Both the position numbers and the translations under genes were made by a program. From assembly GCA_018240985.1 (NCBI GenBank), contig JAFEER010000049.1, positions 4,440-68,439 on the forward strand: 64,000 nt of DNA. Reading direction: 5' to 3'. Position 1 is the first letter of the stretch. The number at the start of each line of letters is the position of its first letter. The notes beneath the pieces are model-generated. The model was not told the origin of the DNA, ran no database searches, and saw nothing but the letters and a program-made list of their open reading frames with translations. This document shows, piece by piece, positions 1,163 to 7,874 of the stretch. This stretch comes from Pseudomonadota bacterium (GTDB lineage Bacteria; Pseudomonadota; Gammaproteobacteria; Burkholderiales; Burkholderiaceae_C).

Positions 1163-3487
1163 TTAACGGCCATGACACCTTTTGAATTTTGCGCCACTAC
1201 CGCACGGACAGGGATCATTTCGTCTCGGTTTTGATCTTCCCAAGGGAGGAGCCGGTTGCTTGAGATTTATCGCCCGCGTTGGGTGAGCCATTCGGACCGC
1301 GTCCTCATAGATTGAGGTGTTTTTCTCCGTTCGCTCTGTTGGTATGCGAACAGCGAACGATTGCGCCCGGTGATAGTTTCCATCGAAACTAATCTCCGCA
1401 ACGACGCCGACCACATCAGAAGCCTTAACGGCTAACGAAGCTGCACTAGCCTTATCATTTACCTTTGCCCAGTCAATTGGCTGGCCGTGTTGCTGTAGCC
1501 AGATAAAGAGCGGCCCTCCATCTCCAGACAGAACAAAGTAACGGGCGGGATGTTGACTCAGGGTTTGGCGAAGGTCAGTGAGCATCTTAGCCAGATTTTT
1601 TCGGCCTTCCTCTCCCAGGTCACGGATATGGCTCTCCGCCGAAAGCCAACCGTCCGCTCGGGTTACGTCGAGAGCATCAAGCAGCTTCAGCACTTCTTCG
1701 GGGAAGTCCTGCGTCGGAAACGGCTTGGTCTCCCAGTCTTCACCCTCGAAGCTCCTATCAACGATGTCGCTCATACCGTCCCAGATAAGCATGTTCACCT
1801 TGTAGCCCTTTAGCTGCTCAGCAATATCCTGATCGAAACGGTTCTTCTTGAGGTACGCGCCAAGGTGGTCAAGCTCGTCGAAGAGATGGGCCTTGCGTAT
1901 CCCTGCCACGGCTTGCCGCACCTCCATGTAATGGGCGAACTCGCCGGGGGTGGGCAGGAGCCGCTTGAGTACGAACAGGTCGTCAATGGACAGCGAAACA
2001 AAGGCATGCTTTCCAAGTAGAGGCTCAACCTGTGGCAGTTCTTTGCAGTACGCTGAAAAAGGTGAGAATGACTCAACCGTCAGCCCAATCGGCACCATCA
2101 CTCGGTAGTCGGAGCGGCGAACACGGCCGCACTCTTCGTATTTGCCGTCTAACAGGCGGTAGAGGGACACTTCATCCGCCGAATTTAGGTAATTAAAAAA
2201 GCGCTCACACTGCTTGTACGCTTTGAGCACCAAGTCTTGAACGGATTGTGCGTGGCGGCCGAAATCAAGTGCAGGTGATGCTATGGTAGCGGCCGCACCG
2301 GCCTTGGCCTCAACTATAAACAGCACGTCATCAATCAGGATGAGCGTGTCATTTTCGGACCACTGCTTACTGGTAGGGTCCTTGTAGTATATCTCCTGGA
2401 AAACTTTAGCGCCAGGAAGCTGAGCGGCCAGAATGTCGGCGAAGGCCGCTTCGCTCATCGTCTTCTGACGCTCCTCAAAGGTCTTCTTGTAGTCCGATTT
2501 TCGCTGAAGCAGGTTGTAGAGAAGAGCACGATACCCCGCATCGCGGGCGAAACACGGATCGACGGCGTAGTAATCCGACCCAAGCTGGATTAGGGGTTTC
2601 TTCCGGGCCGGGAGTGTCCGGTAGGGTGTCCCCGCAAAATCGCCCGCAGCGAAAAACTCGGTTTCTTCGCCGCGCTGGTAAGCCAAATCTGCCAGCAGCG
2701 TCGGTGGTAGCTTCGTATGACGGCTTACGTTGGCGACGCCGCCTCGAAACATGTCATCCATTGCCCGTCCGGCGGCTTTCGCCTGTTCAGCATTGGCCTC
2801 AACCCATGCCTCCATGACATCTGCCAGAGGCTTGTCCTGTGCTGCAGCGAAGGCCTGAGCCGCCTCCAACTGCTTCATCATCTCCATAGTGGCTTCGGCG
2901 TGCCCAGAACGCGTGGCATTGGCCATGGCCTGAAAGCCTTCCGCGATATAGGCGGCACCAACGCCATACACGTCTTCCAAGACATCATTGTGAGGCGCCA
3001 GCACGTAGCGGTAGAACTCGCCCTCCAAAACTTGGTAGCGGTTCCCGCGCATCATCACCCAAGTGGATTTAGCGCGAAACTCAACGTCGGCGGTGTCGGG
3101 ACCAAAGATTCCATCTTTGGTGTCAGCAGACGTGGCCATGGCGAACAACATGGCCTGCTCACGCAGTTTTCGGCCAAGTTCAAACAGTTCTGCGCACTGG
3201 GCTTCGTCGAATGTCATGTCCGCAGGAGCCGCATCTGACGCGAGAACCGCGTGCACATACTCCAGCAAGAACTGGTTTTCGTTAATCAGGTCATCCGGAG
3301 CGTCGGTTTGGCATTGCTCTTCGGCAGCGCTTTGATCTGCCATCGCTTTCATCATGCGCTGTGCGTAGATGTAGCCGAGCAAATCATGCGGAGGCATAGC
3401 GACGATCAACTCGCGCATTCGGGCGGATGTGGCTTCCATGTTTTTCAATAGGGAAGCAGCGGCGTCTTTCCGTTTTTTATCGTCCAT
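1163..3487 (-). CDS. Helical protein with a central NERD-like PD-(D/E)xK nuclease and a C-terminal SEC-C zinc motif
   Basis: [18 protein letters not shown] nuclease motif; ends in [18 protein letters not shown] (SEC-C). The ATG at 3487 (MDDKKRK) is preferred over the track start at 3634. Confidence 0.8.
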   Translation of the reverse strand: [774 protein letters not shown]

Positions 3488-4007
3488 AACTACTTTTGCC
3501 TGACGTTTCTGAATTTGAAATCCGCCGAGACGGGGCGAAGTCGGGAGGTACCAAACGCAACCACTTGCTCGCAGAGTCGCAGTTAGCCCAGGAAGCACCG
3601 ACGCGCTGACCTTCAGGGAATTGAGATATCCCACATCCAGAGTCAGAGTAGTACCGCGTCGAACGCCTTAACGCACTCACCCGCCAACCACTTGAAATGA
3701 GCGCGCAGCATCCCGTGGGTGGTTCGTGCCAGACCTTGTGCCTTTCACCGCCTCCGTAGCTCTTCTGGATTGCCCAACTCTCGTGAGTCTGGACGAAGCC
3801 GCGCATCAGGTATTCATAGTCCGCAAGCGTCACCTGCTGAGCGGGCGCGAGCACGCCGTGTATAAGGACGCCTTGGCCACTCACGTAGATGACGATTTCT
3901 TCGCGCTTCGCATTCGCCTTGAGGAACGTTACCGAATCTTCCGCGCCGACGAGCCAATTCGCGGCTTCGTCAACTGGAGCTTGTGCCAGAGCCTTTGGAG
4001 TTGCCAT
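3477..4007 (-). pseudogene. Probably truncated middle gene of the nuclease/SEC-C operon
   Basis: Protein-like for ~95 aa (MATPKAL...REEIVIYVSG...WAIQKSYGGGERHKVWHEPP), then the composition looks non-coding. Sits between two co-oriented large genes. Confidence 0.45.
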
Positions 4008-7000: not shown

Positions 7001-7874
7001 TGACCGTCCCTGGAGCGCTTCGTACCGCCATCGGATACCAGGCCCCAGCGACGGTGACGCCCAAGAAGGGAAGGGCATCGCCAGTGAATGCTGCATTGCC
7101 AAACGAATCCCACGTCAGTGGCGCCTTGTAGCCACCGACTTCCGCATTGAGAGAAGTTCCCGTGCGCTGGCGCCAGTCGGCGCTCAGTTGACCGATGTTC
7201 TGCAGCATGTCCCTGTACGAGAGCCAGAAATCTTCCGGAGGGAGCTCTACGTGGCCACGTTCCGCATCGACAACAGGGGGCTGTATGAGGTGTGGAATGG
7301 CTTCAATGATCAGTGCCTGCATCGCGACGACCAAGTCCATCTGGGCCAGTGCGGCGGGCACATCGGCGTAGGTGATTCGAAAGGCTTCTATGAAGTCCGG
7401 CACTCGCTCGATGCTGCTGCCGTAGAAGACCGGAACGAACCGGCCGCCGAGACTCACCTTGGTCTGCCCCCAGTCCGCCTCAGGGGAGAAGTCTTCGAGG
7501 GTAGGAAAGTCGGGCCAAGCTGCATGAAGTGTTTCGGCGAACTTTTGGAAGTCGGTATATCTCTCGATTCTTTTACCGCCACGTCCTTCGAGCGGGATGT
7601 CCAGGAATACGCACCATGCAAACGCATGTTTGACGTGGCTGCCAGCATTCGCCGGCCAGAGCTCGGACGCACCGATTGCTCGCGCTACGTCTGCTGCGTC
7701 ATACTGGCACAGGAGGGCGCGGGTCTCCCTTACTTGAGCGAGGAATGTGTCCTTCACCTGTATGCGTTCGCCAAAAAGAGCGTGCAAACTGCTCATCTGG
7801 CGAGCTAGGAAATCAGGAGCCGCTGCGGTCTTAGCAAGTCGACGCTCGCGTTTCTCTCTGGACTTTCTACCCAT
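4080..7874 (-). CDS. 1264-aa protein with a C-terminal PD-(D/E)xK (NERD-like) nuclease domain
   Basis: Long uninterrupted ORF; C-terminal EDVGDFDVLAYWPDHNLLAAVECKY motif; basic N-terminus MGRKSREKRERR. Confidence 0.85.
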   Translation of the reverse strand: MGRKSREKRERRLAKTAAAPDFLARQMSSLHALFGERIQVKDTFLAQVRETRALLCQYDAADVARAIGASELWPANAGSHVKHAFAWCVFLDIPLEGRGGKRIERYTDFQKFAETLHAAWPDFPTLEDFSPEADWGQTKVSLGGRFVPVFYGSSIERVPDFIEAFRITYADVPAALAQMDLVVAMQALIIEAIPHLIQPPVVDAERGHVELPPEDFWLSYRDMLQNIGQLSADWRQRTGTSLNAEVGGYKAPLTWDSFGNAAFTGDALPFLGVTVAGAWYPMAVRSAPGTVIDHWAKKKAPSVSPQVHSRLSQFVFERYDGTLPGPVVLVLGGEICRELPISSVTSAPTGVYLICICDHETVDKQAAVAAAVLAKARQEKNIRCKLIGGPEVLLSSDGVNGPSADELHIILVPALATTSVGLLNLPDKPVRLLPLADLITIFDSLKNLEDLERYWAFCDGQRAALSPFSRGPADLFASFMDTDGVLVDGAVEPTMISLDPSWGTSWRFKALAEFWSRAPRVFPDRTSGWRLSEGTEGVIEMSSRGRKVICYSTLVGDCTVQALLDIKGDLEDARMVNLFIQILADSSFRCRRQLAAAPLFQSEHVLFVCKRSVSSTIVGNDEMDSAADKNAGPVVTAAEGTFSRAAVIHLEIDVRSVLTGLTDAHDGHFEVRCLAETIRKSHDALGMALPEGLEETILSMSGGLARYTLRVTARRVDVPEHPPVVIPRMSDYKLARKQLAEVIRDLGLAPGRYALSEAKEKIDLASAKFRLRIDGRLAQLDRLQLIRACIEQHDALLATERERIQRARQSLSHEVNYDRIEAVEEAREKYGTVARHYRYLLEKAVSSQASGPGEVTLDVLRELVGKVDWLMSLANASDILHNGVDVAGVTIDDSFIPEVFYSDGSNDRDVRFAREYAKTRLGLGENRKDAVEGESEALLESADFNNAFETDLGFNLSDLFTSLSVLAQAQHRGFSKELSLSYGAKPKELAEKLVSEIKDLGQEKAERIVAFLTLSETGLLRLAGRDVQEEEVPYWEHSKRVYRYAIRPLVPVGDELRWGAEAASRCMFNWMSSVRDGYLPADFGWPNIEPAVRQVKASIERRLEFRSEEIFRRHTPFVARGIDFNRKHRAEGFEDVGDFDVLAYWPDHNLLAAVECKYNQPFYTMKDGRRIRDKIFGRKEGDKGQIGKMLRRGAFLEQHRTRMLELLGWPKPAKVPERYAELYVSRDIYYWMVHPPYLVPTHFVRVSTLDSWLKTELFTVAGLP

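What the first reader, a model, noticed from the sequence alone, without database searches (positions are those of the whole stretch)
1163..7874. Unassigned operon of two PD-(D/E)xK nucleases, one with a SEC-C zinc tail
Seen: co-oriented 1264-aa and ~774-aa genes, each with a NERD-like D...ExK motif, flanking a short third gene, upstream of an Avs-like gene in a defence hotspot. I cannot match this architecture to a named system. Inferred: a candidate multi-subunit anti-phage nuclease system.
Basis: partly seen in the sequence, partly recalled or inferred. Interest (0 to 1): 0.62.

Follow-up and report, generated by a model that had tools for sequence, protein, structure and literature searches.

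The report
Upx relative plus separate nuclease genes
The supposed three-gene nuclease operon is a patchwork of separate defence-island genes: a distant relative of the known anti-phage protein Upx, a gene killed by a deletion, and an untested but widespread nuclease-like gene with a zinc-binding tail.

Summary
The sequence features are real: three co-oriented minus-strand genes, with a conserved D...ExK motif in both large ones and a SEC-C tail on the last. They are not one unnamed multi-subunit system.

- **Gene A (4080-7874, 1264 aa)** is a very divergent member of the known single-protein anti-phage family Upx. A family profile hits the Upx cryo-EM chain 9wuf (E=1e-6). An AlphaFold model has 9wuf as its only significant Foldseek match (E=1.6e-19, full length). 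The catalytic triad aligns exactly.
- **Gene B (3477-4025)** is a dead remnant of a 569-aa gene, with a 1303-bp out-of-frame deletion.
- **Gene C (1163-3487, 774 aa)** is intact. It belongs to a large uncharacterised family with a NERD-like PD-(D/E)xK core and a SEC-C tail.

Synteny fails. A is followed by B-C in 2 of 27 informative genome loci, and by a split Avs1 in 14, a pairing already published. C has A upstream in 3 of 34 loci and B next to it in 11. B also occurs alone.

The downstream 1740-aa gene is Avs1-like. This scan had already identified A's relatives as Upx on other DNA. The residual novelty is gene C, an untested single-gene defence candidate.

The parts
4080..7874 (-). Gene A: 1264-aa divergent Upx-family protein (N-terminal sensor region, middle domain, C-terminal PD-(D/E)xK nuclease domain); intact
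   Evidence: - ORF and translation.
- NCBIfam Upx NF042954 hits 10 of 15 family members, best E=2.7e-5.
- Family profile against PDB: only 9wuf_A (Upx), E=1e-6, A residues 738-1157 aligned to 745-1178.
- AF2 model (pLDDT 70) by Foldseek against PDB: only significant hit 9wuf, E=1.6e-19, 1334 aligned columns.
4404..4466 (-). Catalytic motif of gene A: GDFD(1140)VLAYWPDHNLLAAVE(1155)CK(1157)
   Evidence: - Translation checked.
- D1138, D1140, E1155 and K1157 are invariant in alignments A2, A4 and A5.
- The motif aligns residue for residue with SeUpx D1161/E1176/K1178 (residues named in PMC13099982).
- The E1176A mutation abolishes defence (PMC13601566).
3477..4025 (-). Gene B remnant (pseudogene). 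Codons 1-101 (3723-4025) are homologous to a 569-570-aa family. The deletion junction lies at about 3717-3728, followed by an out-of-frame tail ending at 3477
   Evidence: - Translation.
- Intact homologues: P0124 and P0126.
- DNA alignment and junction mapping give a 1303-bp deletion, which is not a multiple of 3.
- The deletion removes the invariant R514-x5-H520 motif of the family.
1163..3487 (-). Gene C: 774-aa protein made of an N-terminal helical domain, a NERD-like PD-(D/E)xK core, an alpha/beta domain and a SEC-C zinc tail; intact
   Evidence: - Translation.
- Homologues of 82-93% identity occur in alpha-, beta- and gamma-proteobacteria and in Trichlorobacter.
- 469 clusters at 50% identity match at E<=1e-30.
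- AF2 model: pLDDT 83.7, pTM 0.83.
- Foldseek finds no hit at E<=0.001. Most of the best weak hits are PD-(D/E)xK-fold nucleases: Cas4 SSO0001, RecE, ACE1, MGME1, lambda exonuclease and tRNA-splicing endonuclease.
2303..2356 (-). Putative catalytic motif of gene C: E(378)ND(380)[13 protein letters not shown](393)AK(395)
   Evidence: - Translation checked.
- E378 and D380 are invariant, and E393, K395 and G397 are at least 90% conserved, across 35 sequences of 22-50% identity.
- The motif is retained in a 21%-identical 804-aa homologue that lacks the SEC-C tail.
1166..1222 (-). SEC-C zinc-binding tail of gene C ([19 protein letters not shown])
   Evidence: - Pfam PF02810, E=2.2e-9, 37.4 bits against a cut-off of 20.4.
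- Profile hits to the SecA and YchJ SEC-C peptides in PDB.
- C760, C762 and C771 are at least 90% conserved.
- H772 is invariant in the closer set A8.
1..863 (-). First 287 codons of a 1740-aa Avs1-like STAND NTPase with TPR repeats. The gene runs off the left end of the window, and its start lies 299 nt downstream of gene C's stop. It is a separate defence gene
   Evidence: - Own-genome contig C247:80-5302.
- Pfam AAA_16/AAA_22/NACHT/TPR.
- PADLOC Avs1b, E=1.4e-24.
- Only ~24% identical to the split Avs1 that follows A elsewhere, and not found beside A or C in any other fetched locus.

Best explanation
The region is a mosaic of independent defence-island cargo genes on a mobilisable integrative element. 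It is not one system.

**Gene A** is a divergent Upx. By homology it is a single-protein sensor-nuclease.
- Its large N-terminal region recognises a phage protein. For the tested Upx proteins this is the ATPase domain of the large terminase.
- Recognition licenses the C-terminal PD-(D/E)xK nuclease (D1140/E1155/K1157) to degrade DNA and stop the infection.

**Gene B** was a separate 569-aa gene of unknown function. It carries a conserved R-x5-H motif that may be HEPN-like. In the window it is inactivated by a 1303-bp frameshifting deletion.

**Gene C** is a self-contained gene that moves horizontally on its own.
- It is predicted to be a metal-dependent NERD-like PD-(D/E)xK nuclease.
- The core is flanked by a helical N-terminal domain and a SEC-C zinc knuckle.
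- It is most likely another single-gene defence or abortive-infection effector.

**The 1740-aa Avs1-like STAND gene** downstream is a fourth, separate module.

**Shown here:** homology and fold of A, motif conservation in A and C, the deletion in B, and the lack of conserved synteny.

**Inferred:** terminase sensing by A, nuclease activity and a defence role for C, and any function for B.
For: **A is a Upx relative.**
- NF042954 hits 10 of 15 diverse members.
- The family profile hits 9wuf_A at E=1e-6 over about 420 residues of the C-terminal domain, with the triad aligned at identical spacing.
- hhalign against an independent Upx C-terminal half gives E=3.7e-4.
- The AF2 model has 9wuf as its only significant Foldseek hit: E=1.6e-19, probability 1.00, spanning the whole length.
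- Published Upx homologues sharing 16% identity both defend and both sense terminase, and some Upx genes sit next to a split-TPR Avs1 (PMC13601566). That is the arrangement A-NACHT(1475 aa)-481 aa seen in 14 of 27 informative A loci.

**The genes are independent.**
- A: 2 of 27 loci have B-C, 14 have the split Avs1, and 11 have neither.
- C: A is upstream in 3 of 34 loci. B is upstream in 8 of 54 and downstream in 3 of 46. Eight of 33 loci have no co-oriented neighbour within 400 bp.
- C's immediately upstream, co-oriented genes vary: an unrelated 589-aa gene or putAbiC. In Pannonibacter the neighbour is a divergently oriented DUF5677 gene.
- B occurs alone or with other partners.
- B is deleted here and split in Comamonas while A and C remain intact.

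**C is mobile cargo.**
- It is 82-93% identical across proteobacterial classes.
- It is found on 9 plasmids and on no phage record.
- Its neighbours include integrases, GmrSD, a HEPN_LA2681 protein, an N6 methylase and DUF5677.
Against: - A scores far below the curated Upx cut-offs: 14 bits against 1900 for NF042954, and PADLOC Upx E=0.035. The N-terminal halves show no sequence-profile signal.
- The A model is of only medium confidence (pLDDT 70, pTM 0.47) and the global TM-score to 9wuf is 0.31.
- I could not check whether A's family is in the published Upx list, because the supplement is not held.
- The order A-B-C recurs in six fetched loci: the window, Halopseudomonas, Comamonas, L090, L091 and L093.
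- B recurs near A in two other architectures, and next to C in both gene orders. This is more than pure chance might give and could reflect a functional link.
- No experiment exists for C or B. C gets no Pfam NERD hit and no significant structural match.
Confidence: 0.75

Rival explanations
1. A-B-C is a genuine three-gene system in one lineage, for example Upx recruited together with two accessory nucleases. The window holds a decayed copy of it.
For: - The same order, with short gaps (54-130 nt), occurs in the window, Halopseudomonas (L004/L029), Comamonas (L007) and the metagenome contigs L090, L091 and L093.
- B also lies after A-Avs1 in Photorhabdus and Serratia, with a remnant in Pectobacterium.
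Against: - Within A's closest clade (>80% identity), Roseateles, Chromobacterium and Polaromonas lack B-C downstream.
- C and B are each far more widespread than A: more than 1068 and 1438 clusters against 239. They mostly occur without A.
- B is broken in two of the A-B-C copies while its neighbours stay intact.
- Upx works alone in published tests (PMC13099982, PMC13601566).
Confidence: 0.08
2. B-like genes and C form a two-gene module: a ~570-aa, possibly HEPN-type partner plus a NERD-like nuclease. The module can be read in either gene order, and A is merely a neighbour.
For: - B is directly upstream of C in 8 of 54 loci and directly downstream in 3 of 46.
- The 589-aa P. aeruginosa partner of C shares a collinear ~200-residue region with B, including an R-x4/5-H motif (hhalign E=0.0016, probability 16%). 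It is found on either side of C.
- HEPN_LA2681 genes lie near C in 4 loci.
Against: - Most C loci have neither partner, and 8 of 33 have no co-oriented neighbour.
- B occurs without C in all three B-anchored contexts and in the A-Avs1-B loci.
- Orientation is not fixed.
- The link between B and the 589-aa protein is weak.
- B shows no profile similarity to HEPN_LA2681 and no PADLOC or Pfam hit.
Confidence: 0.12
3. Gene C is not a defence gene. Instead it is a maintenance, recombination or addiction function of integrative elements, or a housekeeping-type 'YecA family' protein as annotated.
For: - Databases name it 'YecA family' or 'SEC-C domain protein'.
- It often lies directly beside integrases or the guaA integration site (L004, L115, L120, L140).
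- Some of its neighbours are ordinary metabolic genes.
Against: - The YecA label rests only on the 19-residue SEC-C tail.
- The gene is rare and patchy: full-length copies in 2 of 401 sampled genomes.
- It is near-identical across classes, with a conserved nuclease motif.
- It sits beside known or candidate defence genes in the window and elsewhere.
Confidence: 0.15

Closest known systems
Upx (SeUpx, Salmonella enterica; cryo-EM 9wuf; NCBIfam NF042954; from Gao et al. 2020, the attribution being my own recollection) - compared with gene A
   Same: - Both are single polypeptides of about 1260 aa.
- The fold matches over the full length (Foldseek E=1.6e-19).
- The C-terminal domain shows sequence-profile similarity (E=1e-6).
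- The catalytic D/E/K triad is identical, with the same spacing.
- The gene family shows the published genomic pairing with a split-TPR Avs1.
   Different: - Only ~13% identical to SeUpx.
- It fails the curated HMM cut-offs, so PGAP calls the family 'hypothetical protein'.
- PADLOC's Upx model matches only at E=0.035.
- The N-terminal region is unrecognisable by sequence.
- Terminase sensing and nuclease activity are untested for this clade.
- In the window it is not directly coupled to the Avs1-like gene.
Upx-Avs1 (split-TPR) gene neighbourhoods described by Evans et al. 2026 (PMC13601566)
   Same: - In 14 of 27 informative loci, A's relatives are followed within ~10 nt by a 1475-aa Cap4-nuclease/NACHT protein (PADLOC Avs1b) and a 481-aa gene.
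- The window also has an Avs1b-like gene downstream.
   Different: - In the window the Avs1-like gene is a single 1740-aa protein, only ~24% identical in the NTPase to the split type.
- It is separated from A by the B remnant and gene C (about 3.2 kb).
- The adjacency is not seen in any other fetched locus.
NERD-domain / PD-(D/E)xK nucleases such as Cas4, RecE, lambda exonuclease and MGME1 - compared with gene C
   Same: - Conserved motif E-x-D...hydrophobic strand...E-x-K.
- A central alpha/beta core whose best structural matches are mostly PD-(D/E)xK enzymes.
- PGAP labels a 27%-identical Lactococcus plasmid homologue 'NERD domain-containing protein'.
   Different: - No Pfam NERD hit and no significant Foldseek hit.
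- A ~290-residue helical N-terminal domain, an extra C-terminal alpha/beta domain and a SEC-C zinc tail have no described counterpart.
- Activity is untested.
Rugutis (Lactococcus single-gene antiphage protein with a SEC-C motif; PMC11381338)
   Same: An experimentally active single-gene defence protein that carries a SEC-C zinc motif and has an otherwise novel fold.
   Different: - It is 359 aa long, with the motif at the N-terminus.
- It shares no other similarity with gene C, so the two are not homologous beyond the motif.
ApeA-type single-gene HEPN defence proteins - compared with gene B
   Same: - A stand-alone ~570-aa gene found in defence islands.
- An invariant R514-x5-H520 near the C-terminus fits the HEPN Rx4-6H signature.
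   Different: - No PADLOC, Pfam, NCBIfam or PDB profile hit.
- No profile similarity to HEPN_LA2681.
- The fold was not modelled here.
- The window copy is dead.

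Membership tests
Upx (gene A) | Single ~1240-1270-aa polypeptide with the Upx NTD-MD-CTD fold | tested here: met
   The AF2 model of residues 44-1243 has 9wuf (cryo-EM Upx) as its only significant Foldseek PDB hit: E=1.6e-19, probability 1.00, 1334 aligned columns. The global TM-score is only 0.31 and the model pLDDT is 70, so domain packing is not verified.
Upx (gene A) | C-terminal PD-(D/E)xK core with the catalytic D1161/E1176/K1178 (SeUpx numbering) | tested here: met
   The profile alignment to 9wuf_A places A's D1140/E1155/K1157 on these residues with identical spacing. They are invariant in the family. The residues are defined in PMC13099982 and PMC13601566.
Upx (gene A) | Score above the curated cut-off of the family model (NCBIfam NF042954 equivalog, 1900 bits; PADLOC Upx) | tested here: not met
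   14.1 bits, E=0.0048. The best among 15 members is E=2.7e-5. PADLOC gives E=0.035. A is therefore not an equivalog of SeUpx, only a distant family member in the broad sense of Evans et al., whose tested homologues share 16% identity.
Upx (gene A) | Listed among the 2093 Upx homologues of Evans et al. (Supplementary Data 5) | not testable with these tools
   No supplementary files are held. Accessions to look up: WP_074777722.1, WP_341970010.1, WP_039503610.1, WP_230247828.1.
Upx (gene A) | Phage defence and terminase-triggered toxicity that depend on the ExK glutamate | not testable with these tools
   This needs an experiment. It has been shown only for SeUpx, HpUpx and PbUpx.
Upx (gene A) | Atypical N-terminal nuclease pocket (SeUpx D122, D127, R129, E147, D173) | not tested
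   There is no reliable residue-level alignment of the N-terminal regions (hhalign gave no signal). The model is of low confidence in residues ~80-260.
   - A-anchored loci: 2 of 27 have B-C.
- C-anchored loci: A is present in 3 of 34, and B is adjacent in 8 of 54 upstream and 3 of 46 downstream.
- B-anchored contexts: 0 of 3 have A or C.
NERD-like PD-(D/E)xK nuclease (gene C) | Conserved acidic residue(s) plus an (D/E)xK motif on adjacent beta-strands | tested here: met
   E378 and D380 are invariant, and E393 and K395 are at least 90% conserved, in 35 sequences of 22-50% identity. In the model the motif lies on strands E376-385 and E388-393.
NERD-like PD-(D/E)xK nuclease (gene C) | Recognisable restriction-endonuclease-like fold, or a family model hit | tested here: inconclusive
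   Pfam and NCBIfam detect only the SEC-C tail. Foldseek gives no hit at E<=0.001. Most of the best weak hits (E 0.007-1) are PD-(D/E)xK-fold proteins, mixed with unrelated low-probability matches. A distant homologue is annotated NERD by PGAP.
SEC-C zinc-binding motif (gene C tail) | C-x-C...C-H metal ligands matching PF02810 above its cut-off | tested here: met
   PF02810 E=2.2e-9, 37.4 bits against 20.4. The profile matches the SecA and YchJ SEC-C peptides. The Cys ligands are at least 90% conserved.
Avs1 (downstream 1740-aa gene) | STAND NTPase core matching Avs1b, plus a TPR sensor | tested here: met
   PADLOC Avs1b E=1.4e-24 over residues 279-780. Pfam AAA_16/NACHT and TPR_19. The effector domain and terminase sensing were not examined.
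HEPN / ApeA-like (gene B family) | Rx4-6H motif within a HEPN fold | tested here: inconclusive
   R514 and H520 are invariant (R-x5-H) in 15 sequences. There is no HMM, PDB or profile link to known HEPN families. No structure was modelled.

The most novel reading that the evidence does not exclude
Gene C is the founding example of an untested, widespread single-gene anti-phage system.

- **Architecture:** a ~775-aa protein with a helical N-terminal sensor-like domain, a NERD-like PD-(D/E)xK nuclease core and a SEC-C zinc knuckle.
- **Structure:** the overall fold has no solved structural relative.
- **Spread:** it moves among proteobacterial classes at 80-90% identity on integrative elements and plasmids.
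- **Possible partners:** it may cooperate with interchangeable ~570-aa R-x5-H (HEPN-like?) genes such as gene B, which are found on either side of it.
Probability: 0.4. Interest if true: 0.55.

Novelty: new member of a known kind. Interest (0 to 1): 0.33.

Why it matters
- **For annotation.** A whole clade of ~1260-aa 'hypothetical proteins' belongs to the Upx family. It occurs in Comamonadaceae, Pseudomonas, Halomonas, Pectobacterium, Serratia, Salmonella and in 11 of 5426 complete E. coli genomes. PGAP leaves it unnamed, and its curated Upx model and PADLOC's score it only marginally. Defence-system censuses may therefore undercount Upx.
- **For biology.** Gene C is the most useful lead. It belongs to a large family: at least 469 clusters at 50% identity. 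The family has a conserved nuclease motif, a confident but structurally novel model and typical defence-island behaviour, and it has never been tested.
- **As a caution.** Co-oriented, tightly spaced genes in a defence island are not necessarily one system.

Tried and rejected
- **Family libraries on gene B.** Pfam, NCBIfam and PADLOC on the B remnant found nothing meaningful, only a far sub-threshold DUF6289 match at E=0.056. Pfam and PADLOC on intact B found nothing.
- **Profile searches on gene B.** The B profile found nothing in PDB. B against HEPN_LA2681 by hhalign gave a probability of 0.4%, so the HEPN reading of B stays a motif-level lead.
- **N-terminal half of A.** hhalign of A's N-terminal half against an independent Upx N-terminal half showed no signal. 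Only the structural comparison linked the whole length.
- **Upx in genomes.** A genome search with the Upx model found one IS-disrupted Upx in 401 genomes, so I could not build a proper Upx profile.
- **Upx supplement.** The published Upx accession list is not held.
- **Gene C in genomes.** A search of 401 genomes with C was swamped by SecA-type SEC-C tails. Only 2 full-length hits and 1 distant hit were real.
- **Transcription signals.** The promoter and terminator scan of 700-8400 gave no more sites than shuffled sequence, so co-transcription could not be judged.
- **Literature.** No paper combines SEC-C, NERD and defence. Rugutis shares only the motif.
- **Considered and rejected.**
  - That the 1740-aa Avs1-like gene is the usual Upx partner: it is only ~24% identical in the NTPase and is absent from all other loci.
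  - That C's leader region is a conserved regulatory element: only about 30 nt before the start codon align.

Full report
**Anatomy.** Three minus-strand ORFs fill 1163-7874.
- Gene A is 4080-7874 (1264 aa).
- The short ORF is 3477-4031, with its real ATG at 4025.
- Gene C is ORF 1163-3634. Its true start, shared with all homologues, is the ATG at 3487, giving 774 aa.
- The gaps are 54 nt between A and B and 299 nt between C and the next gene. The B-remnant ORF overlaps the start of C by 11 nt.
- The surroundings are an accessory island. It holds a MobA relaxase, an AAA protein, an integrase, AbiEii, the five Mza-type genes, a Dcm methylase, an IS element and a type I R-M system.
- The window lies on contig C247 of a 4.0-Mb draft genome of the same family as Comamonas testosteroni. 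That chromosome (4,136,480 bp) carries the closest full-length copy of C.

**The middle gene is a remnant.**
- Intact homologues are 569-570 aa (P0124 in Halopseudomonas bauzanensis, P0126 in Roseateles).
- The window copy matches only codons 1-101. It then jumps to the last ~37 codons in another frame.
- Relative to Halopseudomonas, 1303 bp are missing between the imperfect repeats GATCCGCC and GATCCACC. The loss is not a multiple of three.
- The deletion removes most of the protein, including the invariant R514-x5-H520 motif.

**Gene A is a divergent Upx.**
- Pfam finds nothing. The Upx models of NCBIfam and PADLOC give faint, collinear hits (E=0.0048 and 0.035).
- Ten of 15 family members spanning 23-87% identity hit NF042954, best E=2.7e-5.
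- A profile of the family finds a single PDB chain, 9wuf_A, a 1272-aa 'restriction endonuclease'. E is 1e-6, with A residues 738-1157 aligned to 745-1178.
[quoted passage not shown] 2026, PMC13099982).
- The alignment puts A's D1140, E1155 and K1157 on SeUpx D1161, E1176 and K1178 with identical spacing. These residues are invariant in the family.
- An independent, IS-disrupted Upx from another genome aligns to A's C-terminal ~470 residues by hhalign at E=3.7e-4. Its N-terminal half gives no signal.
- I modelled residues 44-1243 with a 26-sequence alignment (pLDDT 70.4, pTM 0.47).
- Foldseek against PDB returned one significant match, 9wuf: E=1.6e-19, probability 1.00, 1334 alignment columns, 13% identity. 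The next hit has E=0.2. The TM-score of 0.31 means domain packing is not reproduced, so fold-level homology over the whole length is supported but not detailed geometry.
- Evans et al. 2026 (PMC13601566) show three points:
  - Upx homologues sharing only 16% identity both defend and are both triggered by the ATPase domain of phage large terminases.
  - E1176A abolishes this.

**Synteny of A.** A scan of one genome per species gave 34 loci.
- Of the 27 with a full-length A and downstream sequence, 14 have A followed within ~10 nt by a 1475-aa Cap4-nuclease/NACHT protein (PADLOC Avs1b) and a 481-aa gene. This is the published Upx-split-Avs1 arrangement.
- Two loci have A-B-C (Halopseudomonas and Comamonas, where B is split into two frames). 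Eleven have neither.
- Within A's closest clade (>80% identity), Roseateles, Chromobacterium and Polaromonas lack B-C downstream.
- B also appears after A-Avs1 in Photorhabdus and Serratia, and as a 67-codon remnant in Pectobacterium. In Roseateles it sits on the other strand with a different 532-aa partner.
- RefSeq calls A's relatives 'hypothetical protein', including in the 11 of 5426 complete E. coli genomes that carry one.

**Gene C stands on its own.**
- Its family is large. There are more than 1068 clusters at 90% identity. In a library clustered at 50% identity, 469 representatives match at E<=1e-30 and 1228 at E<=1e-10.
- Copies 82-93% identical occur in Achromobacter, Burkholderia, Pseudomonas aeruginosa, Rhizobium, Sphingopyxis, Xanthomonas and Trichlorobacter. 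This points to recent horizontal spread.
- The database names ('YecA family', 'SecA') rest only on the 19-residue SEC-C tail.
- Contexts vary:
  - a 589-aa unknown gene plus C in P. aeruginosa;
  - putAbiC plus C in Trichlorobacter;
  - C alone beside DUF5677 and HEPN_LA2681 in Pannonibacter.
- In 80 metagenome loci (57-93% identity) the counts are as follows:

| Feature | Loci |
|---|---|
| B directly upstream of C | 8 of 54 |
| B directly downstream of C | 3 of 46 |
| A upstream of C | 3 of 34 (two are near-duplicate contigs) |
| Any co-oriented ORF within 400 bp upstream | 27 of 54 |
| No co-oriented neighbour on either side | 8 of 33 |

- The neighbours are a mix. Some are integrases, GmrSD, SMC-like ATPases, a HEPN_LA2681 protein, a methylase, plasmid and prophage genes. 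Others are ordinary metabolic genes.
- C relatives are on 9 plasmids and on no phage record. On Lactococcus plasmid pUCCL637D a 27%-identical copy, annotated 'NERD domain-containing protein', is cut by an IS30.

**What C looks like.**
- The AF2 model is confident (pLDDT 83.7, pTM 0.83). Its parts are:
  - an all-helical N-terminal domain (~1-295);
  - an alpha/beta core carrying E378-N-D380 and E393-A-K395 on adjacent strands;
  - a helical linker region;
  - a second alpha/beta domain (~645-715);
  - the SEC-C tail.
- No PDB structure matches at E<=0.001. Most of the best weak hits are PD-(D/E)xK-fold proteins: CidB nuclease domains, tRNA-splicing endonuclease, Cas4 SSO0001, RecE, ACE1, MGME1 and lambda exonuclease. 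They are mixed with unrelated low-probability matches.
- Across 35 representatives at 22-50% identity, E378 and D380 are invariant. E393, K395, G397 and the SEC-C cysteines are at least 90% conserved.
- A 21%-identical homologue without the tail keeps the motif.
It is unproven biochemically.

**Gene B's family.**
- It has more than 1438 clusters and no Pfam domain.
- It occurs with other partners or alone in defence islands: a 310-aa gene plus B plus a 532-aa gene in Burkholderia ambifaria, RES plus B in Stenotrophomonas, and alone next to an MmeI-type enzyme.
- Earlier notes of this scan read a 565-aa relative as a HEPN protein.
- I could confirm only the invariant R-x5-H motif and a weak collinear similarity to the 589-aa partner of C (hhalign E=0.0016, probability 16%).
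- There is no link to HEPN_LA2681, to PADLOC or Pfam models or to PDB.

**The downstream gene.**
- It is a 1740-aa STAND/TPR protein with a strong Avs1b hit.
- It is only ~24% identical to the split Avs1 that accompanies A elsewhere, and it is not found next to A or C in any other fetched locus. I treat it as a further independent module.

**Verdict.**
The interpretation as one unnamed multi-subunit nuclease system is not.
- The locus is four separate modules: a divergent Upx, a dead gene, a stand-alone SEC-C/NERD-like nuclease candidate and an Avs1-like gene.
- I reached the Upx reading before seeing that earlier agents of this scan had reached the same conclusion for A's relatives in other genomes. 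Those notes agree but are not independent evidence.
- The recurrent proximity of B to both A and C, in several arrangements, is the one pattern not fully explained by chance co-location. It is kept as a rival.

Noticed in passing
L033:9845-13708 (Thalassospira aquimaris): The 35%-identical Upx-like homologue of gene A starts with a SEC-C motif ([21 protein letters not shown]...). The same zinc knuckle that ends gene C is thus fused to the N-terminus of a Upx relative.
   Followed up: partly
L001:3340-4938 (Roseateles sp. PN1) and L050:10075-11673 (Burkholderia ambifaria): Intact gene B is followed in these two genomes by a 532-aa protein (P0127) with no Pfam or PADLOC hit. It carries a 'D...FSDK' stretch that could be another nuclease-like motif. 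This is a second recurring partner of B.
   Followed up: partly
L007:13820-15530 (Comamonas testosteroni NFYY023 chromosome): In this A-B-C copy, gene B is split into two ORFs (225 and 360 aa) by a frameshift near 14478. This is either a second independent inactivation of B or a sequencing error.
   Followed up: no
L042:2052-7776 (genome G145, contig 12): A canonical-type Upx is interrupted by an insertion that carries an rve-family transposase (4568-5653, opposite strand). Its two pieces match NF042954 at E=1.5e-116 and 2.3e-169.
   Followed up: partly
L167:3962-7322 (Lactococcus plasmid pUCCL637D): A distant homologue of gene C is cut by an IS30 element into a 'NERD domain-containing protein' and a 'SEC-C metal-binding domain-containing protein'.
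   Followed up: no
L004:5841-10004, L115, L120, L140: Gene C, or A-B-C, sits directly after guaB-guaA and an integrase or integrase fragment in several unrelated contigs. This suggests a shared guaA-adjacent integration hot spot for the element that carries it.
   Followed up: no
L043:6059-7828 (P. aeruginosa) and L101, L117, L127, L141: A 585-596-aa protein without any family hit accompanies gene C on either side. It shares a collinear ~200-residue region with gene B, including the motifs 'ARLP..EQ..W' and R-x4-H.
   Followed up: partly
window 8333-20012: Next to the finding lie a MobA/MobL relaxase, an AAA protein, an AAA_25 (RepA-like) protein and an integrase.
   Followed up: no
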